From Naegleria gruberi (taxonomy: Eukaryota), in NCBI GenBank assembly GCA_000004985.1, contig GG738868.1: a stretch of DNA of 64,000 nt, one strand, 5' to 3'. Positions within the stretch are counted from its first letter, which is position 1. Each line of letters opens with the position of its first letter. Both the position numbers and the translations under genes were made by a program. Positions 14,632 through 49,295 of this stretch are shown here, in pieces. Below the pieces are notes generated by a model. The model was given only the letters and a program-made list of their open reading frames with translations. It ran no database searches and was not told where the DNA came from.

Positions 14632-16120
14632 ATGAATCCCGTAGATCCGAATTGGATTGAAACTCAACATCGTTCCTTTTTAAATTGGACGAATAGTCAA
14701 CTACGAAACAAACATGTTCAATTGACTAATTTAACAGAAGATTTAAAGAGTGGAGTCCATTTACTTGAATTACTCTCCGAATTACTTCATACTCCAATAC
14801 ACATTCCAATTACAAATCCACAGTTTAGAATACAAATGATGAATAACTTGACAGAAGCTTTGGAAATTATTCGAAAGGATTGTGACATTTCCTTGATAAA
14901 TATTGATTCGAATGATATAGTAGATGGAAATACCAAGTTAGTTTTAGCATTAATTCACTCATTGATGTATAAATATCAAGTATGTAAAGCAATGAGTGAT
15001 GACAGAAATGTCATTGACAAGAATACGCCAATGACAGTTGTTGAAAAGCAATTAATTGATTGGTTGAATTCAATTTTATATAATTCTCAACCTGTAATTA
15101 CAAATATTACAAATGATTGGACAAATGGTGAACATTTGAAAAATCTAGTTCATTATTTTCTTCCACATAATTTCGAACAAGTATTCGAAAGTTTGAATTC
15201 AATGAATCCGACTGAGAAAATTGCAGAATGTATTAAATTAGCTGATCAAGAATTGAAAATTCCAAAGATTTTAGAAGCTCAAGATATTTCCAATGGTCCA
15301 GATCAATTTTCCATGTTGGCTTATTTATCCTATTATAGAATGGCAATTAAGAAACAATTAGATCAGAAACCACCATTGGTAGAAACTGTTTCTAATACTC
15401 CTCCTCTTCCTCAACCAACAACCAATAGAAGTGGTACAAGTTCCTCCTCCTCCTCAACAACAACCATCATTGGTAGCTCAACAAGTTCCTCCTCCACCAA
15501 TTCAAGTCGAAACTAAACCAATTTCACAGCCAACAGTTTCTTCTATGAATTTTGATGATATTTCAAGTGCTCCACCATTGTCTCCTCCTTCCATTGATGA
15601 GCAAAAATTTAATTATCAACAACAACCTCCAGTCCAGAATTGGAATTTACAACCAAGTCAACCAGTCCAACCAGTTCAATATTATCCACAATCTCATCAA
15701 CAATCATTGACCAAATCAACCTATCTTCCAGATCAATCCAATCAAGCAAATTCTCACATTTCTTCATTATATTCACCTGGAAATTCAAATTCTGTTCAAC
15801 TCATTCCACAAATTCCTTCTCCAAATCAACAAGTGTACGGACAAGAAAACAATCATCAATCATTGATGGTTCCACCACCTCTAATGCCAACACAATCATT
15901 GCAACCATACATGGATCCATATCAACAGTTTAATGGAATACCAACTCAACACATGATGATGATGAATCAATATTCTCCTCAAATGCAACCTCCTCCACAA
16001 ATGCCTCCACAACAGCAACGACAACCAATGATTATCACCACAACTACTACTACAAATAATCATCAAGTATTCACATCGGATAATATGCAATATGGATATT
16101 ATCAACAACAATTTTATTGA
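14632..16120 (+). CDS. tandem calponin-homology (CH1-CH2) actin-binding-domain protein with Pro/Gln-rich tail
   Basis: CH1 is WIETQHRSFLNWTNSQLRNKHVQLTNLTEDLKSGVHLLELLSELL. CH2 is VVEKQLIDWLNSIL...NITNDWTNGEHLKNLVHYFLP. The reading frame shifts by +1 between table ORFs 14632..15516 and 15431..16120, which overlap at 15385-15516. Either a short intron (for example donor near 15383/15395 and acceptor ...cattggtAG near 15476) or a frameshift joins the CH domains to the P/Q-rich tail (QVPPPPQQQP...QMPPQQQRQP). Confidence 0.6.
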
Positions 16121-16467: not shown

Positions 16468-18339
16468 ATGACCCCATTCAAGAATCTAGTGCTTGCACTA
16501 TTGGGTCTTGTCTGCTTGACACTTATTACAAACTCTGTACAAAGTTCAAGCATGCCATCCATCATTAGAAGACAATTGACATATAAGAAATGTGAATCCA
16601 TTGGTGATCCACATTATCTTTCATTCACTGGTCAACGTTTCGATCACATGGGTTTAGGAGATTACGTTCTTGCTCAATCATCTGATAATCAATTCACTGT
16701 TCATGTCAGAACTAGTAAGTGGGGAGGTGCTGCAGCTGTCAATTCCAATGTTGCTGTCAGATTAGGTAAAGGAGAAGATGATACTTTCGAATATGATGTC
16801 GAACAAGATGTTTTTTACATTTCTGGTGTAAAGGCAAGTGTAGCTGTCAATCAAAAAGTTTCACTTGGAACAGGTGACATTCACAGATTGAATTCTAACA
16901 CTGCTGTCATTTCTGCATCCAATGGAGTCAAGATGACAATGTCTTGGTATCGTCATGCTGCTTGGAAACAACAATTAGGTTCGGTTGGCTACATTTCAGC
17001 TGTCATTGATGCTCCAAGTGATGTCAATTTCAGTAAGGGAATGTGTCTTGGCATTAATCAAGCATCTCAACAAGCAATTGACATTTTGCACAATCACGTT
17101 CAGAGAAGAATTGCTAGAAAGGCAGAACTCTTGAAGGAAACTCCAAAGAGAAAGAGAACTGCACGAAAGGTCTGTAAGAAAGCTGGTTTAAAGAAGAAAC
17201 AAAATCCATTCGCTTGGAAGTCATGTGTCAAGGATGCCATTCAATCAGGTGCCAAGATTGGTTTGGCAATTGGTAAAACCATTAAGAAGGTTAAAGTTGC
17301 TGAAAAGAAAGTTCTGAAAAAGGCAATGAAGAAGAGAGGCAAGAAAATTGTTCGAAAGGTAAAGAAGGGAATTAAAAAGGCAGAGAAACAAGTTGACTTG
17401 TTGAAGAAGAAGGCTGATCAAGCTCAAAAGAAGGCAACTGCAAAGAAAAACAAGTGTGCTAAGCGTGCTTCCAGAAAGGCCAGACGTGCTGCTAGAAGAG
17501 CCAGACGTGCCCAAAAGAAACTTGCAAAGAAACAACAAATTCTTGAAAAGGTCAAGAAAACTGTCAAGAAAACTATCAAGAAAGTTGGTCGTCGTGTGAG
17601 AAAGGTCAGAATTGTCAAGAATTGGAACAAGCTCATCAAGAAGGTCAGAAGGGACAGAAAGAGAGCCATGAAAGCTGCTAAGAAAGCTAAGAAAGCTGCT
17701 AAAAGAGCCATCAAGGAAGCAACCAGAAAGGCAAGACAACTGGCAGAAGAAAAGAAGAAACAAGCTGAAGAATTAGCTAAAAAGCTCCAAAGAGATGCTG
17801 AAGCAGCTGCCAAGAAATTGAGAGATGCTGTCGAAGCTGCTGCAAGAAAGGCAAGAGAGGCTGCCGAAAGAGCCAGACAACAAGCTGAAAATGCCAGATT
17901 GAAAGCTACTCGTCGTGCTAGAAAACAAGCTGAAAGATTGGCCAAGTTGGCCAGAGAAGCTGCTGAAAGAGCTGCCAAGCAACAAAGAGCCATTCTTGAA
18001 CAAATTCAAAAGCTTGCCAAATTGGCTGCCATCAAGAAAGCTCAACAACAAGCTGAAGCAAAGAAGAGAGCTGCCAAAGCTTTGAGAAAGGTTGAACAAG
18101 CCAAGAGAAAGGCAGCTGAAGCTCTTGAACGTGCCAAAGCGGAAGCAACCAGAAGATCTATTGAATTGGCTGATAAATTGAGAAAAGCTGCTGAAAGAGC
18201 TGCTAAAGAAGCAGTTGAAAGAGTCAAAAAAGTTGAGGAATTGAAGAAGAAGGCCATTAAGGAAGTTGAAGAAAGGGCCAGAAAACTTCTTACTGGAGGT
18301 GTTTCAAAGGGAAAGACTGTTTGTTTAAGACTTCCATAA
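16468..18339 (+). CDS. secreted protein: signal peptide + VWD-like domain (GDPH motif) + about 420-aa polybasic Lys/Arg/Ala-rich helical tail
   Basis: ATG at 16468. The signal peptide is MTPFKNLVLALLGLVCLTLITNSVQSS. KCESIGDPHYLSFTGQRFDHMGLGDYVLAQSSDNQFTVHVRT matches the N-terminal signature of von Willebrand factor type D domains (C-x3-GDPHY-x-[ST]F-x-G...Y-L). From about aa 200 the protein is more than 50% K/R/A (KKAMKKRGKKIVRKVKKGIKKAEK...), grading into mixed-charge KAAE/ERAR heptad-like helices. Codon choice is strongly biased (aag/aga/gct/gtt). Confidence 0.7.
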   Translation: MTPFKNLVLALLGLVCLTLITNSVQSSSMPSIIRRQLTYKKCESIGDPHYLSFTGQRFDHMGLGDYVLAQSSDNQFTVHVRTSKWGGAAAVNSNVAVRLGKGEDDTFEYDVEQDVFYISGVKASVAVNQKVSLGTGDIHRLNSNTAVISASNGVKMTMSWYRHAAWKQQLGSVGYISAVIDAPSDVNFSKGMCLGINQASQQAIDILHNHVQRRIARKAELLKETPKRKRTARKVCKKAGLKKKQNPFAWKSCVKDAIQSGAKIGLAIGKTIKKVKVAEKKVLKKAMKKRGKKIVRKVKKGIKKAEKQVDLLKKKADQAQKKATAKKNKCAKRASRKARRAARRARRAQKKLAKKQQILEKVKKTVKKTIKKVGRRVRKVRIVKNWNKLIKKVRRDRKRAMKAAKKAKKAAKRAIKEATRKARQLAEEKKKQAEELAKKLQRDAEAAAKKLRDAVEAAARKAREAAERARQQAENARLKATRRARKQAERLAKLAREAAERAAKQQRAILEQIQKLAKLAAIKKAQQQAEAKKRAAKALRKVEQAKRKAAEALERAKAEATRRSIELADKLRKAAERAAKEAVERVKKVEELKKKAIKEVEERARKLLTGGVSKGKTVCLRLP

Positions 18340-33964: not shown

Positions 33965-35052
33965 ATGATGCTAATTGATTCACAATGGAATCAAGTGTTG
34001 AATTCCGATGAATATTACAAGGATATAATTTCAACGTTCTTATCCCAAGATGTAGCACCACACTATTTCAAAGTACCAGGTTATGGAAGAAAGAAATTGG
34101 ATGATTATGAAGTTTTAATAATGAAGGGAATTTATCAATCATGGAAAGAATTATTTGTTAATTTGTAAGTTTTTCATGTGTTCAAAATCTGATTAAACAT
34201 CTTGATAGATTCTTTAGAAAATTCGAAACATTTAATGAACAATACCATCAGGCAGAGACTATTCTTGCATTTGAACAAAATATCAGATACGGAAGTGAAA
34301 AGGAAGATGACGAAGAAGAAGTGGAGGATAATCAAGACGAGGAGAGCAATGAAAAAACCAACTTGACCCTATTATTGAAAGAAGAGGCAACTCTTTGCAT
34401 TAAAGCAATTGAACAATCCAATGACACAACAGATTCCCTTCCTATTGGATCTTCTAAATTTGGAGGTAGACCTGATTTACCAAATGATTGTGTGTGGCCA
34501 ACTATGAAGAATGATTCAACAACACACATGATTTTTGTTGGTCAAATTAACTTGAAAGACTTGAAAAATTGTCATGCACCTAAGGGTGTATTACCAGTAA
34601 CTGGTTGGATGTTCTTCTTTATGGATTGGGGAGTTAATGGAGATTACTTTTCATTTTATTGGAATGGACCGGAATCTGAACTAAAAAGACATGACATGCC
34701 AGAGAAAGTGTACAACGATACCAAGTCTTTAAAATCAGTTTCCTTAAGTTTTGAAGAAATTGTTCAACCTTTAAAGAAGAGTTCTATTGAAGAGCATGAA
34801 TTACCTGAGGATGAAGAAGTTTTACTGCCTGTTGGTGGTTTTTCCTCAATACTGGGCTATCCTATGGCTTTCCAAGATGATGGAAATTACCTTCATACTA
34901 GTGGAAAGGTTTTCCTTTTCCAATTCAGTGGTTCAAACCAAGTAGACATTGATATGGGTGATGCCAACTTTTATTATTGTGCAAATATTGAAGATTTTTG
35001 TGGAGAAAAGACCCAGTCCAAGGTTGGTATTTATTCTGAATTCCAATCTTAA
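33965..35052 (+). CDS. DUF1963 (YwqG-like) domain protein; predicted 5' exon joined by a 44-nt intron
   Basis: Main exon 34209..35052. DUF1963 signatures: SKFGGRPDLPNDCVWPT...HMIFVGQINLKDL...LPVTGWMFFFMD ... VGGFSSILGYPMAFQDD...LFQFSGSNQVDIDMGDANFYYCANIEDF. The upstream ORF (frame ending ...SWKELFVN) terminates at a TAA that overlaps a GTAAGT donor at 34165. The acceptor ...cttgatAG at 34207-34208 restores the frame (phase 2). The upstream exon start (ATG 33965?) is uncertain. Confidence 0.5.
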
Positions 35053-37250
35053 GCTGCTAACACGACATCCATATCATTCTTATCTACTTGAATTCTAATT
35101 GGTTCCATAAATCCATAATGGATCATTAATCTATACCATACATTCCATAACCATTGCTTGTATTCATAAATAAAGAGAATGGTTTCGAAATGTAAATATT
35201 GAGAATGTTGTTGATATTTCAATTTCATGTAATTCCACATTGACAAATTTTCACTCAAAGGTTTGCCTTCTTGACAAGCACTAAGAGTGTCTGGAAGAGA
35301 TTTAGAATGATACATTCCTCTTGATGCAATTCTTGCATTAATGACATATCTATTAACAGGAACTCCCATCGATTGATTAACATATCTCAATAAATTATTG
35401 GTTCTCATAATTAACAACATTTCTGTTGGCATATTTCTGACCATTTGTTGGAACTTGTCCATTCTGTGCTTGATAATTCCCTTAAAGAAGGTTTCAAATT
35501 CTGCCTTTGTTCCATGAGATGACAATCCAATACCACTCTTCTCATCATAACCTCTCATTAAAATCAGAGAGGCATACAATTGAGAATCATCAATACCCAA
35601 ATCTTTACAATATTGGTCAACAACTGGCTTGTCATGCATTACCAAAGCTCTCCAAAATCTTGCAAATTTCACTCTGAAATCTGGATCCAATGTCTGATAC
35701 AAACCATGATCGAGTAGGACAACCTGTGAATGATTTGGATTTTTGGGATGAGCCCTCACTAGAATATTCCCAGGATGTGGATCAGTGTGGACGAAACCAA
35801 ACACAAAGATCATCTTGGCAAATATACTCATAGTTGTCTTGGCAGATTCGACCATTCTCTTATGATCCATATGTTTGGTAATAGATTCAATGTCACTAAT
35901 TTTCCATCCATCGATAAATTCCATTGTGAGAACTCTTTTTGAAGAGAGTGGTGAAACAATTTTAGGAATGTAGAGACTTTGGGTGATTCCTTCTTCCTCC
36001 TTCTCAAATAATTTTCTAATCTTGTTTGAATTTTCATGTTCAATGTGAAAATCCAACTCTTGATTCAGAGTATCGTCCAACATTTTGCCCATCCATGAAA
36101 TGTTATAATGAGGAAAGAAGAAGTGAATAATCTCCATGGCAGCTTGCTTGGCAATCATATCTCCCTTATAGAAATAACGAATGGATGGATATTGAATTTT
36201 CACAGCAACTGTCGATCCGTCCAATTCAGTTCCTTTCAGTGATTCAATAGCCCCTTTTCTGAGCTTTGCCTTGTGTACTTGTGCCAAACTTGCTGCAGCA
36301 ATTGGCAATTCGTCAAATGACTCGAAAATATCTTCCAATTTCCTATCCTTCAATTCTGGATGTTTGTGAAATTCTTCCTCAAACATGAGCCTGATTTCTG
36401 ATAAATCTGCCTGATAAGGAACCTTATCTTGCAAGACTTGGAGTGTCTCTGTCCATGCATCTGGTAAGAAATTGGTCATTGAGGACATGTACTGACCAAC
36501 CTTGATGAAAATTCCTCCCAGATCAATAAACAAGTTCAAAAATTTGGTGGCACTTCTCTTGTGGGTCTGATAGATGAGAGTTTTTGTCTCATCAAACTCT
36601 TGATACTTTCCTTCGAGTGAATCTTTCAATCTCTTTTCACTTTCGATTAATTCCTTATCCCACTCATCACTTCCCATATTGTTGAGATAATCGTACAAAC
36701 AACTAATTCCCACAAATCCCACTCGTGAAAATCTATAAGTTCCCTCCAATAATTGAATGAAATTTGCAACTAGATGCATAATTTCATGTTCCACCTTGTC
36801 AAGAAAATCCAAATTTGAATGATGCTCTCCTTTCACATCATGTTGTGAATAATGCCAAAGAAAATTTCTAAATTTCATCATGTGTGGTTTCATTGGTTTT
36901 TCTAAATACTTTTCATAAACCAAAATCAAGTAATAAATAACAAATAAATTAAACAGTAAATTATTAAATCTCATAAATTTTGATTTCCTTCTTGAATTTT
37001 GTTCGGACTTTTCATTGTTTTTTGAAATTTGTCCATCATTCAATTTATTCTCTTCTCTTGGTTGATGATTATTCAAAAGGATTTGCTCAGAGTTATGAAA
37101 CTCTCTCGTTCGGAACAAATCAAACTTTGTATTCATGAATAATTTTGTCATCTTTGAATTATTCTTCATTAAACATGATAATTTTCTCTTCCCTAATCCA
37201 CTCAACACTGCATTTGAAAGTGAGAGGGTATTTCCTTGTCGTTTCATCAT
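35049..37250 (-). CDS. ABC1/ADCK (UbiB/aarF-domain) atypical protein kinase
   Basis: ATG at 37248-37250. ABC1 motifs present: IAAASLAQVHKAKLRKG...VAVKIQYP, and GFVHTDPHPGNILV ... VVLLDHGLYQTLDPDFRVKFARFW (catalytic HxDxHPGN and DHG). Confidence 0.85.
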   Translation of the reverse strand: MMKRQGNTLSLSNAVLSGLGKRKLSCLMKNNSKMTKLFMNTKFDLFRTREFHNSEQILLNNHQPREENKLNDGQISKNNEKSEQNSRRKSKFMRFNNLLFNLFVIYYLILVYEKYLEKPMKPHMMKFRNFLWHYSQHDVKGEHHSNLDFLDKVEHEIMHLVANFIQLLEGTYRFSRVGFVGISCLYDYLNNMGSDEWDKELIESEKRLKDSLEGKYQEFDETKTLIYQTHKRSATKFLNLFIDLGGIFIKVGQYMSSMTNFLPDAWTETLQVLQDKVPYQADLSEIRLMFEEEFHKHPELKDRKLEDIFESFDELPIAAASLAQVHKAKLRKGAIESLKGTELDGSTVAVKIQYPSIRYFYKGDMIAKQAAMEIIHFFFPHYNISWMGKMLDDTLNQELDFHIEHENSNKIRKLFEKEEEGITQSLYIPKIVSPLSSKRVLTMEFIDGWKISDIESITKHMDHKRMVESAKTTMSIFAKMIFVFGFVHTDPHPGNILVRAHPKNPNHSQVVLLDHGLYQTLDPDFRVKFARFWRALVMHDKPVVDQYCKDLGIDDSQLYASLILMRGYDEKSGIGLSSHGTKAEFETFFKGIIKHRMDKFQQMVRNMPTEMLLIMRTNNLLRYVNQSMGVPVNRYVINARIASRGMYHSKSLPDTLSACQEGKPLSENLSMWNYMKLKYQQHSQYLHFETILFIYEYKQWLWNVWYRLMIHYGFMEPIRIQVDKNDMDVVLAA

Positions 37251-46659: not shown

Positions 46660-47830
46660 AAGTAATAGTTTTATATTTTAATCATTTCTCAATAATTTTT
46701 TGCACTTTCTTGTGGTATGGTTTTGTATCTTCATTTGATTTCATTTTTATTTTTCAAAAATATTTTGTAATTCCTTTTTTGGAAGCCTCAGAAGAACCAT
46801 CATTTTTTTCACATCCCCTGTACTTTAATTTTCCAAACATTCTCAACCCAAAATCAATTCATCTCTCCACAAACTATTCTCCACCTTCACTTTCACCGAA
46901 ATATCAATTCTACCATTCATCCTTTATCTCGCTCAATTTTAATACAACCAATCAAGCATACTTCAATATTTTGTAAAAATAGCAAAAAAACGCCATACGC
47001 TCGAGTTATTACTTGTTCTTTCCCGCCAAAATCTCAGTTAGTATTTGTGGTAAGTGAGAGGACAACTCATTCTTGGTTTTGGTGTCACTCATCTCTATGA
47101 GATCTTGCAAACTGGAATGCAATCACTCTGTAGATGCAACGATATCTACAGAAATTTTACATTTTCCTCAACAAAATCTTGATAAACTTAGAGATAAATC
47201 TTTAGCCTATACTTTAATGCACTTTCTTCAAGTGTTTATTACAGTTTGTTGTCATGTAACAATATTTGGAATAGAGCACGAATCTTGATTGAGTCACTAA
47301 GTTTTCCTTCTTTACAAAAACCAAGCATATCAAAAAATCCCTGCCTAAATTGTTCCTAATTTTTGCTCTTCAACATTTGATTGGATCTTCAAAAAGAGAC
47401 TGGACGAATTGAATAGAGACACACTCATTACCGACTTTTGATGCTATCAATACACTTGTCTCAAAACTATTTCACATCTTCTATATACTTCATACAAAAC
47501 TTATTCGAAACATATTGTTAAAACTAATCAACATTATCCTTCTCGTTGTATGGAATCTGATACTCCCAATTGATGAACCTGTATTGTCAATTGACTGCTC
47601 CACTACATCGAAATAGTAAAGAGTTATTCTTTCAACATCCAAAATGTCACCCAAACCGCTAATTCAAATGACTTTCTTCTTCGCATCAGTGATTCGACAT
47701 GCTCGTGTCACCAATCCCCCATCATTTCACAACTAGTAATGTGTTCTCTCTGCTGAGCAATATTTAAAATGTCACTCGAGCCAACTGCCAATCAAATCAT
47801 CCACATAAAAAAATTCACAATTTATAACAA

Positions 47831-49064
47831 GATGAATAAGACCCTCTTGTTCGCATTAGCCATGCTTTTCTGCATGGTTGCTTTCGTTTCTGCTGGTCCA
47901 TCTGCCAGTGCTGAAACTCTCGCTGCCACCACATTGTGCAACACTTTAGGAAATAAAACTAAAGGATGTGTCAAGTCATCTAGAAAACTCTTGAAAAGAG
48001 TTCCAAAGAATAAGAGAAGACAAGTTAAGAGATTGTTAAAGAAGGCCAGAAAGAATGCTCGTAAAGCAAAGAAACAACAAAGAAAGCTCAGAAAATTGAG
48101 AAGATGTGCCAAGAAGGCTAAATCTTTGAAGAAGAGAAGACAATGTAGAAGAGCATTGAAGAAGGTTGTTAAGAAGATCAAGAAGGCTAGACGTGCTGCT
48201 AGAAGAGCTGCCAAGAAGGCTGCTAAGAAGGCTAGAAAGGCCAGAAGATCTGCTAGACGTGCTGCTAGAAGAAAGGCCAGAAAAGCTTTGAAGAAGGCTA
48301 AGAAATCCTTGAAGAAGAGAAGAGCTTTGAAGAGAGCTGTCAGAAAGGGTAGAAAGTTCGGAAGAAAGGTCAGAAAGGTCAGAAAGTGTAAGAGATCTTC
48401 CTCAAGAAAGACCAGACGTGCTGCCAAGAGAAGAGTCAAGAAGGCAGTTAAGAAGGCTTTGAGAAAGTTGAAGAAACAATTGAAGAAGGCTAGAAAGGTT
48501 GCTAAGAAGGCTGCCAAGAAGGCTAGAAAGGCTAGAAGATTGAGAAGAAGACCAGCTAGAAAATGTAGACGTGTCTCAAAGAAGTCCATTAAGAGAGCTG
48601 TTAAGAGAGTTGTCAAGAGAGCTGTTAAGAAGGCTACTTTGAAGCTCAGAAAGCAATTGAAGAAGGCTAAGAAGCAAGTCAAGAAGGCTAGAAAGGTTGC
48701 CAAGAAGGCTGTTAAGAAGGCCAGAAAGGTTGTCAAGAAGGTCAAGAAGACTTGTAGAAGAAAGGTCAAGAAGGCTGCCAAGAAGATTGCTAAGAGAAGA
48801 TCTGCTGCCAAGAAGGTCGTCTTGAAGAAGGCTGCTGCTAAAAAGTTGAACAAGGTTGTTAACAAGTTGTTGAAATTGAAGAAGAAGCTCGGTAAGAGAT
48901 TCAACCCAAAGAAACACATCCCAAAGAAGGTTAGAAAGGTCTTGAGAAAATTGAGAATTTCTGCCAAGTGTGTCAAGAAGGTCAAGAAGGCTGCCAAGAA
49001 GGTTAAGGTCTCAAAGGCTTTGTTGAACAAGTTGAGAAAGGTTTCTTCCAAGTGTAGAAAGTAA
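47831..49064 (+). CDS. secreted hyper-basic Lys/Arg-rich protein with regularly spaced cysteines (about 410 aa, more than 55% K+R)
   Basis: The table ORF starts at ATG 47769. A second in-frame ATG at 47831 begins a canonical signal peptide MNKTLLFALAMLFCMVAFVSAGPSASA. The mature protein is nearly pure K/R/A/V/L (KKARKNARKAKKQQRKLRKLRRCAKKAKSLKKRRQCRRALKK...). About 10 Cys occur at semi-regular spacing, and dozens of dibasic sites are present. Codon use is strongly biased (aag/aga/gct/gtt/gtc/ttg). Confidence 0.65.
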
Positions 49065-49295
49065 ATCAATTTCATTTGAATTTGAATCATTAAATTATTA
49101 AATACATATTTGGAAATTCAATTATTAATTTACCCATAAATTTGTTATTGTATTGCGTTTTGAAAAAAGCATGTAGATCAACAAAACTGATATGTATTGT
49201 AATATTATTTTAAATTGATTGGAAAAATTGTAAACTTTCAAAAAACGAAAAATTTGGTAATTCAAGATTAATTTTTTTTGAATTTGATAAAAAAA

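What the first reader, a model, noticed from the sequence alone, without database searches (positions are those of the whole stretch)
16468..18339. Secreted VWD-like domain fused to a 420-aa polycationic Lys/Arg/Ala helical tail: no family I can place it in
The protein has a clear cleavable signal peptide and then a domain whose start (KCESIGDPHYLSFTGQRFDHMGLGDYVLAQS) matches von Willebrand D / GDPH-type domains. The remainder is one of the most basic long stretches imaginable: runs of KKAxKKAxKR grade into KAAE/ERAR mixed-charge amphipathic helices. VWD domains are normally attached to mucin, vitellogenin or RGM-type modules. A fusion to a histone-H1-like or apolipoprotein-like polybasic coiled region in a secreted protein is not something I recognise. 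Possible roles are binding of polyanions (extracellular DNA, polyphosphate, sulfated or acidic matrix) or an adhesive or antimicrobial function.
Basis: partly seen in the sequence, partly recalled or inferred. Interest (0 to 1): 0.8.

Follow-up and report, generated by a model that had tools for sequence, protein, structure and literature searches.

The report
Secreted mucin-type head with giant polycationic helix
This is a real, apparently unannotated Naegleria gruberi gene for a secreted protein that joins a mucin/von Willebrand-type domain to a roughly 350-residue, +100-charged amphipathic helix, a conserved but uncharacterised design that most likely sticks to negatively charged surfaces.

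Summary
Window 16468-18339(+) is an intact 623-codon, single-exon gene in Naegleria gruberi.

The protein has five parts:
- A signal peptide.
- A two-cysteine helical hairpin at the position of the C8 domain.
- An almost unbroken helix of about 350 residues.
- A cysteine four residues from the C-terminus.

The whole protein has net charge +115. The tail is not random low complexity. Its hydrophobic stripe repeats every 3.64-3.67 residues (11/3, not heptad). Its distal half has a large excess of i/i+4 salt-bridge pairs. The tail of the N. fowleri and N. lovaniensis orthologues is 90% identical, as conserved as their VWD.

The family is confined to Naegleria and Willaertia plus unnamed environmental sequences, and none is characterised. 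One N. fowleri paralogue was detected by mass spectrometry in conditioned-medium vesicle preparations. The N. gruberi protein itself is absent from the protein collections searched.

A second secreted hyper-basic helical gene (net +195, no VWD) lies at 47832-49064. It suggests that this kind of tail can exist without a VWD head.

Function is inferred, not shown: most likely an autoprocessed head carrying a polyanion- or membrane-binding sticky rod.

The parts
16468..18339 (+). Complete single-exon gene, 623 codons plus stop. N. gruberi member of the heterolobosean VWD / polycationic-helix family.
   Evidence: ORF. Start and stop match homologue termini. The N. fowleri relative is one exon. The organism was identified from a neighbouring gene.
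16468..16548 (+). Signal peptide (residues 1 to about 27), predicted cleavage after VQS26 or nearby.
   Evidence: Sequence features, and an N-terminal hydrophobic segment in all twelve homologues and relatives examined. No SignalP run was possible.
16582..17046 (+). VWD beta-sandwich (residues 39-193), bounded by Cys42 (16591-16593) and Cys193 (17044-17046), which probably form a disulfide.
16603..16614 (+). GDPH motif (Gly46-Asp47-Pro48-His49), the predicted autocatalytic Asp-Pro cleavage site in the turn between strands beta1 and beta2.
   Evidence: Conserved across the 32 modules: G 30, D 28, P 31, H 30. It lies between predicted strands 39-45 and 49-51. Asp and His are required for cleavage in FCGBP (PMC10880436).
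17047..17253 (+). Helical hairpin at the position of a C8 domain (residues 194-262), with invariant Cys236 (17173-17175) and Cys253 (17224-17226). Motif: C-KKAGL-x8-C-V-x-D-x-I-x-SG.
   Evidence: Both cysteines are invariant in 32/32 modules. The profile aligns continuously through this region to FCGBP and MUC2 VWD-C8. Predicted helices span 226-238 and 247-260. There is no Pfam C8 hit, and hhalign gives only 30% probability over 23 columns.
17254..17727 (+). Proximal hyper-cationic amphipathic helix (residues 263-420; residues 276-420 are 48% K+R, net +62, 5% acidic). Contains conserved Cys330 (17455-17457).
   Evidence: Composition. Predicted helices. L/I/V/A face against K/R face. Period 3.66 with power 11.0, only just above the shuffle maximum of 10.6. 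Cys330 lies exactly 77 residues after the second hairpin Cys in all four short-form proteins.
17728..18297 (+). Distal Ala-faced, salt-bridged amphipathic helix (residues 421-610). It forms most of a 235-residue Gly/Pro-free run (375-609).
   Evidence: Period 3.64, power 33.0 against a shuffle maximum of 10.6. The stripe phase drifts only about 125 degrees over about 220 residues. i/i+4 opposite-charge pairs: 46 observed against 18.7 +/- 3.6 expected, z 7.6. No heptad signal (z -0.8 at period 3.5).
18298..18339 (+). C-terminal break (TGGVSKGKTV) and the conserved terminal motif C-[LI]-R-[LI]-[PA]-stop, with Cys619 (18322-18324).
   Evidence: The last Cys is always 4 residues from the C-terminus in the window protein, P0004, P0005 and P0006.
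47832..49064 (+). Second gene of related kind: a secreted protein with no VWD. The mature part is about 389 aa (K128, R68, A58, E1, D0; net +195, pI 12). It ends in the LGKRFNPKKH...KC...KC module shared with the long-form VWD proteins.
   Evidence: Translation and signal-peptide-like start. Composition, period 3.70 with power 16.5 against a shuffle maximum of 10.2, and C-terminal module alignment with P0001-3, P0011, P0022 and P0041. No Pfam family. It explains the GC-skew spike at 48-50 kb.

Best explanation
SHOWN:
- This is a genuine N. gruberi protein-coding gene from a heterolobosean-specific family.
- The product has a signal peptide and a GDPH-type VWD beta-sandwich with a C8-position two-cysteine hairpin. 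Together these form a stripped-down mucin/VWF 'D assembly' lacking TIL and E modules.
- It then has an almost uninterrupted amphipathic alpha-helix of about 350 residues. That helix has a very large positive charge and an Ala/Leu stripe repeating every 11/3 residues.
- Two conserved cysteines mark the tail, one near its start and one at its very end.

INFERRED MECHANISM:
1. The protein enters the secretory pathway.
2. The VWD folds and the Cys42-Cys193 disulfide forms.
3. The Asp47-Pro48 bond cleaves itself, as in FCGBP, RGM and MUC2/MUC5AC. This leaves the roughly 20-residue first strand tethered by the disulfide and the head stabilised.
4. Outside the cell the tail acts as a long polyvalent cationic rod. 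It adsorbs electrostatically, and through its narrow apolar stripe, onto polyanionic surfaces. Candidates are anionic membranes (bacterial prey, vesicles), acidic matrix, or mineral and substrate surfaces.
5. The head and the two tail cysteines provide self-association or anchoring.

In short, it is a secreted 'sticky rod' for adhesion or prey and particle capture.

My confidence in the anatomy is about 0.9. My confidence in the sticky-rod, surface-binding function is about 0.35-0.4.
For: Gene and family:
- The ORF is intact and its termini match those of homologues.
- Homologues occur in N. fowleri, N. lovaniensis, N. gruberi, Willaertia magna and environmental contigs.
- The N. fowleri gene is a single exon.

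Head:
- Pfam VWD above threshold.
- Profile against PDB sequences: FCGBP 4.8e-52, and MUC2 4.7e-11 across VWD plus the C8 region.
- GDPH is nearly invariant and sits in the beta1-beta2 turn. Cys42 and Cys193 co-vary perfectly. This fits the cleavage-plus-tether mechanism described for FCGBP (PMC10880436).

Tail:
- Whole protein net +115. Predicted helices 261-325, 329-418, 423-559 and 562-608.
- 11/3 periodicity with z 12-21, also present in orthologues. Power 33 against a shuffle maximum of 10.6.
- Polar and apolar faces are segregated. Excess of i/i+4 salt-bridge pairs, z 7.6, and a 235-residue Gly/Pro-free run.
- The tail is 90% identical between N. fowleri and N. lovaniensis, against 88% for the head and 53% for the presequence.
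- Only short degenerate DNA repeats are present, so it is not a recent microsatellite expansion.

Exported and expressed:
- Paralogue FDP41_006112 gave 18 peptide occurrences and 19.8% coverage, in three replicates of N. fowleri conditioned-medium EV preparations (PMC10558758).

Tail as a separate module:
- A stand-alone secreted +195 helical protein lies in the same window, and its C-terminal module is shared with the long-form VWD proteins.

Surface-binding precedent:
- 11-mer '3-11' amphipathic helices of apolipoproteins, alpha-synuclein and the giant perilipin-4 helix bind lipid surfaces. Length and positive charge drive that binding (PMC5889406).
Against: - No binding, localisation or cleavage experiment exists for any family member.
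- The EV proteome that contains the paralogue also contains many cytosolic proteins, so it proves expression more than selective secretion.
- 90% sequence identity in the tail between sister species is higher than expected for a non-specific polyanion binder. It hints at a specific fold or partner.
- The i/i+4 salt bridges and Ala-rich face would also suit a stiff monomeric spacer or an Ala-packed helical bundle rather than a surface-adsorbed helix.
- No RNA or protein evidence is available for the N. gruberi gene itself.
- The C8 assignment is weak.
- Signal-peptide cleavage was judged by eye and by hydropathy only.
Confidence: 0.45

Rival explanations
1. Antimicrobial reservoir. The protein is delivered to phagosomes or secreted onto prey, and the cationic amphipathic tail, intact or cut into many peptides, permeabilises bacterial membranes. 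The VWD head serves as a carrier or pro-domain.
For: - The proximal tail (about 48% K+R, with a Leu/Ile/Val face) looks like concatenated cationic helical antimicrobial peptides.
- Naegleria is a bacterivore.
- From my own knowledge, not checked here: naegleriapores are released from multi-peptide precursors.
- FCGBP, the closest solved relative of the head, is a mucosal defence protein.
Against: - There are no regular repeat units, acidic spacers or defined processing sites.
- The tail is one phase-coherent helix, not separate modules.
- 90% conservation between sister species is unusual for fast-evolving antimicrobial peptides.
- The Ala-rich distal face is only weakly hydrophobic.
Confidence: 0.2
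2. Structural or condensing component of a regulated secretory product, such as cyst wall, pore plug or adhesive trail. The basic tail condenses with an acidic partner inside vesicles and in the extracellular matrix. The VWD and cysteines cross-link the material.
For: - VWD assemblies package and polymerise mucins and VWF (PMC10880436 introduction).
- Giardia cyst wall protein CWP2 carries a 121-residue basic C-terminal extension that is processed and contributes to sorting and wall material (PMC2851657).
- Paralogues P0008 and P0009 carry long Ser/Thr-rich mucin-like regions beside the same VWD module.
- The second polybasic gene has an odd number (9) of cysteines in its mature part, so at least one is unpaired within the chain and could form an intermolecular bond.
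Against: - The N. fowleri paralogue was detected in axenic trophozoite cultures, not cysts.
- No acidic partner has been identified.
- Only two cysteines lie outside the head in this protein.
Confidence: 0.2
3. Rigid spacer or stalk. The distal tail is a stable single alpha-helix or Ala-packed bundle whose role is mechanical: it holds the VWD head about 30 nm from whatever the C-terminal cysteine is attached to. Charge is secondary.
For: - Strong i/i+4 salt-bridge excess and a 235-residue Gly/Pro-free helix.
- High positional conservation of the tail.
- The two tail cysteines are at fixed positions relative to the hairpin Cys and the C-terminus, while the length between them varies from 202 to 289 residues.
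Against: - Charge is far from balanced (K+R 63 against E+D 30 in residues 421-623, and 69 against 7 in residues 276-420), unlike ER/K single helices.
- A clear apolar stripe exists, which single alpha-helices lack.
- The stand-alone +195 protein has no head to hold out.
Confidence: 0.1
4. Not a functional gene: a chance ORF in low-complexity DNA, a pseudogene, an assembly chimera, or a nuclear histone-H1-like protein mis-read as secreted.
For: - The protein is absent from the protein collections searched, although other N. gruberi proteins are present.
- The composition is low-complexity.
Against: - The 623-codon frame is intact.
- The same architecture, six conserved cysteines and terminal motif are present in other species.
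- The tail is under purifying selection.
- A family member is detected as protein.
- There is no linker-histone or other nuclear domain.
- All homologues with an intact N-terminus begin with a signal-peptide-like segment.
Confidence: 0.03

Closest known systems
FCGBP (IgGFc-binding protein) and the D assemblies of gel-forming mucins (MUC2, MUC5AC, MUC5B) and VWF
   Same: - Best sequence and fold matches.
- GDPH motif in the beta1-beta2 turn, with the first-strand cysteine four residues before the Gly, as in FCGBP (C-x-x-x-G-D-P-H).
- A helical cysteine-containing segment follows the VWD at the position where C8 sits.
- Secreted.
   Different: - Only 2 of the 8 C8 cysteines are present, and no Pfam C8 hit.
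- No TIL, E, CysD, PTS or CK modules.
- A single head instead of tandem arrays.
- A 350-residue polycationic helix that no mucin, VWF or FCGBP has.
Repulsive guidance molecules (RGM), a GDPH-cleaved partial VWD
   Same: - GDPH autocleavage-type VWD.
- 10 of 32 family modules also score on Pfam RGM_C.
   Different: RGMs are GPI-anchored animal signalling receptors with an N-terminal BMP-binding domain. They have no polybasic helix.
11-mer (3-11) amphipathic helices: exchangeable apolipoproteins, alpha-synuclein, perilipin-4 giant helix
   Same: - 11/3 hydrophobic periodicity.
- Very long helix with a weakly hydrophobic, small-residue face.
- Lysines flank the apolar face.
- In perilipin-4, length and positive charge drive surface binding (PMC5889406).
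   Different: - No detectable sequence homology (apolipophorin-III E 0.61).
- No exact 11- or 33-mer repeats and no proline punctuation.
- Extracellular, and much more strongly cationic than perilipin-4 (whole-protein pI 10.84 against 9.56 for the perilipin-4 helix region).
Giardia cyst wall protein CWP2 basic C-terminal extension
   Same: [quoted passage not shown]
   Different: - The CWP2 head is LRR plus Cys-rich, not VWD.
- Its tail is 121 residues and is removed by a protease.
- No homology was tested or expected.
ER/K single alpha-helix (SAH) domains and Ala-based (EAAAK)n helices
   Same: The distal tail shows the i/i+4 opposite-charge signature, z 7.6, and an Ala-rich helix former composition.
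   Different: - SAH domains are charge-balanced and lack a hydrophobic stripe.
- Here K+R outnumber E+D two to one and a coherent apolar face is present.

Membership tests
VWD domain (Pfam PF00094) | Profile HMM score above the curated gathering threshold | tested here: met
   34.7 bits against 22.9, E 2.8e-8, residues 42-165. 30 of 32 family modules match.
VWD domain (Pfam PF00094) | VWD beta-sandwich fold | tested here: met
GDPH-autocleaving VWD subclass (FCGBP, MUC2, MUC5AC, RGM, BMPER) | G-D-P-H with catalytic Asp and His, located in the turn between strands beta1 and beta2 | tested here: met
   GDPH at residues 46-49, lying between predicted strands 39-45 and 49-51. Conservation across 32 modules: G 30, D 28, P 31, H 30. 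The requirement for Asp and His is taken from PMC10880436.
GDPH-autocleaving VWD subclass (FCGBP, MUC2, MUC5AC, RGM, BMPER) | [quoted passage not shown] | tested here: inconclusive
   Cys42 and Cys193 are at the homologous positions. They co-occur in 28 modules and are jointly lost in 3. The bond itself cannot be observed with these tools.
GDPH-autocleaving VWD subclass (FCGBP, MUC2, MUC5AC, RGM, BMPER) | Actual hydrolysis of the Asp-Pro bond | not testable with these tools
   Requires reducing versus non-reducing SDS-PAGE, or mass spectrometry for a Pro48 N-terminus.
Mucin/VWF D assembly (VWD-C8-TIL-E) | C8 domain with eight conserved cysteines after the VWD | tested here: not met
   - Only two cysteines (C236, C253) are present.
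- No family member hits Pfam C8 at E<=0.01.
- hhalign against FCGBP-type C8 gives 29.9% probability over 23 columns, the C...C-x-D core only.
- Positional equivalence and continuous profile alignment to FCGBP and MUC2 suggest a reduced remnant.
Mucin/VWF D assembly (VWD-C8-TIL-E) | TIL and E modules; PTS or CK domains for gel-forming mucins | tested here: not met
   No Pfam hits beyond VWD. No Cys-rich or Ser/Thr/Pro-rich region appears in this protein.
Linker histone H1 | Winged-helix globular domain, nuclear protein without a signal peptide | tested here: not met
   No linker-histone Pfam hit. An N-terminal signal-peptide-like segment is conserved in homologues. The tail has an ordered amphipathic periodicity.
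Exchangeable apolipoprotein / synuclein / perilipin 11-mer amphipathic helices | 11/3 hydrophobic periodicity with segregated polar and apolar faces | tested here: met
   Best period 3.64-3.66, power 33 against a shuffle maximum of 10.6. Face composition.
Exchangeable apolipoprotein / synuclein / perilipin 11-mer amphipathic helices | Sequence homology or recognisable tandem 11-, 22- or 33-mer repeats | tested here: not met
   No Pfam family. Apolipophorin-III E 0.61. Only short degenerate DNA repeats.
Canonical heptad coiled coil | 3.5-residue hydrophobic periodicity | tested here: not met
   z -0.8 at period 3.5 in residues 421-610. The proximal part has a mixed 3.5 and 3.67 signal.
ER/K single alpha-helix | Charge-balanced alternating E and K/R with i/i+4 pairing and no hydrophobic stripe | tested here: not met
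   i/i+4 pairing is present (z 7.6). However, the net charge of residues 421-623 is +33, and residues 421-610 show a strong apolar stripe.

The most novel reading that the evidence does not exclude
Heteroloboseans, and perhaps other gliding or crawling protists such as Mantamonas, may possess a previously unrecognised extracellular 'polycation system'. This would be a family of secreted, hyper-cationic (+100 to +200), tens-of-nanometres-long amphipathic helical proteins. Some would be armed with self-cleaving VWD heads and a C8 remnant. They would serve as protein glue or a prey-capture and defence matrix on anionic surfaces.

A corollary concerns evolution. The VWD plus C8-like unit thought to have arisen near animals would then already exist, in reduced form, in Discoba, either by deep ancestry or by ancient transfer.
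Probability: 0.3. Interest if true: 0.8.

Novelty: new variant of a known kind. Interest (0 to 1): 0.6.

Why it matters
1. Evolution of mucus building blocks. VWD domains are the building blocks of animal mucus and haemostasis. The one survey I found that mentions Naegleria states that protist VWDs occur without C8 or TIL (PMC4948705). Here the VWD is followed by a conserved hairpin at the C8 position and carries the full GDPH and tether-cysteine apparatus. That bears on when the D assembly and its self-cleavage chemistry arose.

2. An unusual, tractable design. A secreted protein of net charge +115, with a +195 neighbour, built as one ordered amphipathic helix has no characterised counterpart that I could find. 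It could reveal how a soil and freshwater amoeba adheres to, captures or kills things on negatively charged surfaces. A paralogue is made by the pathogen N. fowleri and is recovered from its conditioned medium, so the family may matter for host contact.

3. Annotation gap. The gene appears to be missing from the published N. gruberi protein set. Low-complexity secreted genes of this kind may be systematically under-annotated.

Tried and rejected
- Exact-product look-ups. Look-ups of the target, six neighbouring ORFs and the annotated N. gruberi protein P0155 all failed. Because P0155 also failed, N. gruberi is simply not in that index and these failures are uninformative. The 'unannotated' claim rests only.
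- Synteny. The N. fowleri P0005 locus has different neighbours from the window, so orthology is supported only by architecture and similarity.
- Cys330-Cys619 closure. The AF2 helix lengths in the window protein (90, 137 and 47 residues) suggested these cysteines could meet through antiparallel packing. Recomputing from conserved break motifs left a remainder of 5 residues for the window protein and 32 for P0005, so I dropped the idea.
- Full-length AF2 with 4 sequences. It gave an unreliable head (pLDDT 30-70) and was replaced by the 32-sequence module model.
- Profile search with A2 in the word-indexed collection. It returned only one protein.
- AFDB fold library. It was unavailable.
- Literature searches. 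Locus tags, UniProt IDs and 'VWFD' plus Naegleria found nothing in main texts. Three other omics supplements had no hits.
- tblastn of the tail against the window. It missed the second polybasic gene. I found that gene only by following up the GC-skew anomaly.
- Histone-H1 fusion, canonical coiled coil, ER/K single helix and full D-assembly membership were each tested and not met (see the membership test).
Full report
**Observation.** The ORF exists exactly as described: 16468..18339(+), ATG to stop, 623 aa.
- Signal peptide. The N-terminus (MTPFKNLVLALLGLVCLTLITNSVQS|SS) has the n-, h- and c-regions of a signal peptide. All twelve homologues and relatives examined with an intact N-terminus start with a comparable hydrophobic segment. 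I had no dedicated predictor.
- VWD. Pfam VWD matches residues 42-165 at 34.7 bits (gathering score 22.9). PDB sequences of FCGBP match at E 2e-25 through repeated alignment of CxSxGDPHY...F.G.
- Charge. The whole protein has K111, R60, E37, D19, net +115, pI 10.84. Residues 276-420 are 48% K+R (net +62). Residues 421-623 are mixed-charge (net +33).
- Antisense ORFs. The several 70-190-aa ORFs on the opposite strand are Leu/Ser/Phe-rich mirror images of K/A/R codons. They are not genes.

**Organism and annotation status.** The window is AT-rich (about 33% GC). A neighbouring ORF (35049-37250, ABC1 kinase) is 100% identical to a 'predicted protein [Naegleria gruberi]'. It is 55-59% identical to its N. 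lovaniensis and N. fowleri counterparts. So the window is N. gruberi.

Two searches failed to return this protein or any fragment of it, although other N. gruberi proteins are present in both collections:
- the word-indexed search of 5.8 billion cluster representatives;
- the exhaustive HMMER scan of 1.84 billion representatives.

The best N. gruberi hit is a 42-43% identical paralogue (P0003 = NAEGRDRAFT_59485). The gene therefore appears to be missing from the published gene set. Exact-product look-ups all failed, but so did the look-up for the annotated P0155. That index simply lacks N. gruberi, and I draw nothing from it.

**The family.** Homologues with E 1e-93 to 1e-131 are confined to these sources:
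- N. fowleri (FDP41_012263, FDP41_006112);
- N. lovaniensis (C9374_001324, C9374_012176, C9374_013082);
- N. gruberi (NAEGRDRAFT_59485);
- one environmental contig.

The exhaustive search added the following:
- N. fowleri FDP41_005632 and FDP41_011818;
- N. lovaniensis C9374_012355;
- Willaertia magna ABK040_003113;
- a Mantamonas plastica transcript;
- many unnamed environmental proteins.

Three short-form proteins (533-603 aa) share the window protein's full plan. The long forms have two heads before a polybasic tail. Other paralogues place the same head next to Ser/Thr/Lys-rich mucin-like regions, or next to Pro-rich regions. The N. fowleri short form is a single uninterrupted exon, which supports the intron-free model here. 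Its neighbours are not syntenic with the window.

All family members are annotated only as hypothetical or 'VWFD domain-containing'. Searches of paper texts for their identifiers found nothing. [quoted passage not shown]

**The head.** I extracted 55 full-length modules from 39 proteins and aligned 32 of them (A2).
- Model. With that alignment, AlphaFold2 models residues 28-285 at mean pLDDT 92.6 and pTM 0.79. The model is a beta-sandwich followed by three helices.
- GDPH. The motif (residues 46-49) sits between the first two predicted strands. It is nearly invariant across the 32 modules: G 30, D 28, P 31, H 30. In FCGBP this motif self-cleaves between Asp and Pro. Both Asp and His are required, a disulfide keeps the first strand attached, and cleavage stabilises the domain (PMC10880436).
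- Tether cysteines. Cys42 lies four residues before the Gly, as in FCGBP. Cys193 lies at the end of the domain. Both are cysteine in 28 modules, and both are lost together in three. This is good comparative evidence that they pair.

I infer, but cannot show, that Asp47-Pro48 is cleaved and that the roughly 20-residue N-terminal strand stays tethered.

**The 'linker' is a C8-position hairpin.** Residues 194-262 contain two invariant cysteines (C236 and C253, 32/32 modules) in the motif C-KKAGL-x8-C-V-x-D-x-I-x-SG.
- For a C8 relationship. The family profile aligns continuously from the VWD into the C8 region of FCGBP and MUC2. An example is CkkaglkkkalkaCivDvlqsG against CHEFLDPKPFLDDCVFDLCVTGG. 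Environmental relatives retain extra cysteines (C-x-x-D-x-C).
- Against. No member reaches Pfam C8. A direct profile-profile test against FCGBP-type C8 domains gives only 29.9% probability over 23 columns.

I therefore call it a C8-like remnant and do not file it as a C8 domain. TIL, E, PTS and CK modules are absent.

**The tail is ordered, not junk.** AF2 predicts helices 261-325, 329-418, 423-559 and 562-608 (modest confidence, shallow alignment).
- Periodicity. Hydrophobicity is periodic at 3.64-3.67 residues (11/3), with z 12-21 against shuffles. The same holds in the N. fowleri and N. gruberi relatives. The heptad period 3.5 is absent from the distal half. With a stricter control (maximum over all periods in each shuffle), residues 421-610 score 33.0 against a maximum of 10.6. 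Residues 261-420 score 11.0 against 10.6, which is borderline.
- Stripe coherence. The stripe's phase drifts only about 125 degrees between residues 393 and 610. Residues 375-609 contain no Gly or Pro.
- Faces. The apolar face is Ala/Leu-rich. The rest is K/R, with acidic residues confined to the polar face of the distal half.
- Salt bridges. In the distal half, opposite charges at i/i+4 occur 46 times against 18.7 +/- 3.6 expected (z 7.6). They are depleted at i/i+2. This is the signature of intrahelical salt bridges.
- DNA repeats. The DNA has only short degenerate repeats.
- Conservation. The tail of the N. fowleri and N. lovaniensis orthologues is 90% identical with 2 gapped positions. The head is 88% identical and the presequence 53%. 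So the sequence itself is under purifying selection, not just its composition.
- Tail cysteines. The first lies exactly 77 residues after the second hairpin cysteine in all four short forms. The last is always four residues from the C-terminus (C-[LI]-R-[LI]-[PA]). The distance between them varies from 202 to 289 residues. They could close the tail intramolecularly or link molecules, and I could not decide which.
- No known family. The tail matches no Pfam family and no solved protein significantly.

**Expression evidence for the family.** Supplementary Table S2 of Russell et al. 2023 (PMC10558758) is the LC-MS/MS proteome of EV preparations from N. fowleri Nf69 conditioned medium (2,270 proteins).
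- The long-form paralogue A0A6A5BKG2 / FDP41_006112 is listed with relative quantities 107.6, 341.2 and 209.7 in three replicates, 19.8% coverage and 18 peptide occurrences.
- This shows that a family member is translated by trophozoites and recovered from the extracellular fraction.
- That list also contains many cytosolic proteins, so it is weak evidence for selective secretion. A polycation would also be expected to stick to vesicles.
- The stored table is truncated, so other paralogues may have been cut off.

Codon usage of the window gene is more biased than that of its neighbours (AAG 0.66 against 0.46, GAA 0.92 against 0.74). I cannot calibrate this against expression.

**A second polybasic gene.** Following up a GC-skew spike at 48-50 kb, I found an ORF at 47769-49064(+).
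- From Met22 (nt 47832) it reads MNKTLLFALAMLFCMVAFVSA|GPSA, followed by about 389 residues with K128, R68, A58, E1 and D0. That is net +195 and pI 12, with no VWD.
- It has the same amphipathic periodicity: period 3.70, power 16.5 against a shuffle maximum of 10.2.
- It ends in a module...LGKRFNPKKHIPKK...KC...(about 25 aa)...KC. This module aligns with the C-termini of the long-form VWD proteins of three Naegleria species and of Willaertia, and with the N-termini of P0022 and P0041.
- It has no Pfam family.

The stand-alone gene suggests that a hyper-cationic helix of this kind can work without a VWD head, which some family members add. Homology between the two tails themselves was not shown.

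**Mechanism (inferred).**
1. The protein is made in the ER.
2. The VWD folds and is locked by Cys42-Cys193. The C8-position hairpin is locked by Cys236-Cys253.
3. The Asp47-Pro48 bond hydrolyses itself.
4. After export, the tail offers more than 170 basic side chains along a rod that would be tens of nanometres long, with a narrow, weakly hydrophobic stripe.

The 11/3 design is the one used by apolipoproteins, alpha-synuclein and the giant perilipin-4 helix to lie on lipid surfaces. In perilipin-4, binding scales with helix length and depends on positive charge (PMC5889406).

I therefore think the most likely role is multivalent adsorption to polyanionic surfaces: anionic membranes of bacteria or vesicles, acidic matrix, or substrate. 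The head and the tail cysteines would supply stability and self-association or anchoring.

The rivals are:
- an antimicrobial reservoir;
- a condensing or structural component of a regulated secretion such as the cyst wall (compare the basic extension of Giardia CWP2, PMC2851657);
- a rigid spacer.

The unusually high sequence conservation of the tail argues that something more specific than charge is being selected. This is the main weakness of the simple sticky-rod idea.

**Comparison with known systems and novelty.**
- By domain, the head is a member of the VWD family and of its GDPH subclass, by sequence and predicted fold.
- It is not a full D assembly.
- The tail works like an 11-mer amphipathic helix but is not a member of any such family.
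- It is not a linker histone, a heptad coiled coil or an ER/K single helix.
- I found no description of this architecture in the searchable literature.

I rate it a new variant of a known kind: a D-assembly-type protein with an unprecedented polycationic helical tail, in a lineage far from animals.

Interest is 0.6. It is a real, conserved, expressed and extreme design with no known function, and it has some bearing on the origin of mucin building blocks. It is not yet tied to a phenotype.

Noticed in passing
window 47832-49064 (+) (ORF from 47769): A second secreted hyper-basic helical protein. The mature part is about 389 aa with net charge +195 and only one acidic residue. It has no VWD and ends in the LGKRFNPKKH...KC...KC module shared with the long-form VWD proteins. 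It causes the GC-skew spike at 48-50 kb.
   Followed up: partly
window 47822-49090 (-) and 17245-18257 (-): Long Leu/Phe/Ser-rich ORFs lie antisense to both polybasic genes (422 aa, and 71-189 aa). They are mirror-image artefacts of AAG/GCT/AGA-rich coding sequence and are likely traps for gene finders.
   Followed up: yes
window 14632-16120 (+): A calponin-homology-domain ORF (14632-15516, Pfam CH 126.8 bits) overlaps a Gln/Pro-rich ORF in another frame (15431-16120). They are probably one gene joined by a small intron or frameshift.
   Followed up: no
P0008 (N. fowleri FDP41_005632), P0009 (N. lovaniensis C9374_012355): Paralogues in which a single VWD-hairpin module is flanked by hundreds of residues of Ser/Thr/Lys/Pro-rich, mucin-like sequence. 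P0009 has a signal peptide. They may be protist 'proto-mucins'.
   Followed up: no
P0046 (EukProt Mantamonas plastica), P0097, P0089, P0145 (environmental): The same VWD-hairpin module recurs in other extremely basic contexts. Examples: a 1,411-aa Arg-rich Mantamonas protein with four modules, a His-rich protein, and roughly 1,500-aa signal-peptide proteins built of basic Cys-rich repeats. Basic context seems to be a general theme of this VWD clade.
   Followed up: partly
P0022, P0023, P0041 (N. fowleri FDP41_011818 and environmental): A subfamily that has lost both the pre-GDPH cysteine and its partner but keeps GDPH. In these proteins self-cleavage would release the whole N-terminal part (WNPxxYL module plus Pro-rich region) instead of tethering it.
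   Followed up: no
PMC10558758 Supplementary Table S2: Another N. fowleri VWFD protein, FDP41_008064 (A0A6A5B873, 92.5 kDa, 14 peptide occurrences), is also present in the EV-preparation proteome. Its relation to this family was not examined.
   Followed up: no
window 16468-18339 versus neighbouring ORFs: The gene's synonymous codon choice is more skewed than that of nine pooled neighbouring ORFs (AAG 0.66 against 0.46, GAA 0.92 against 0.74, AGG 0.03 against 0.17). This may indicate high expression, but it is uncalibrated.
   Followed up: partly
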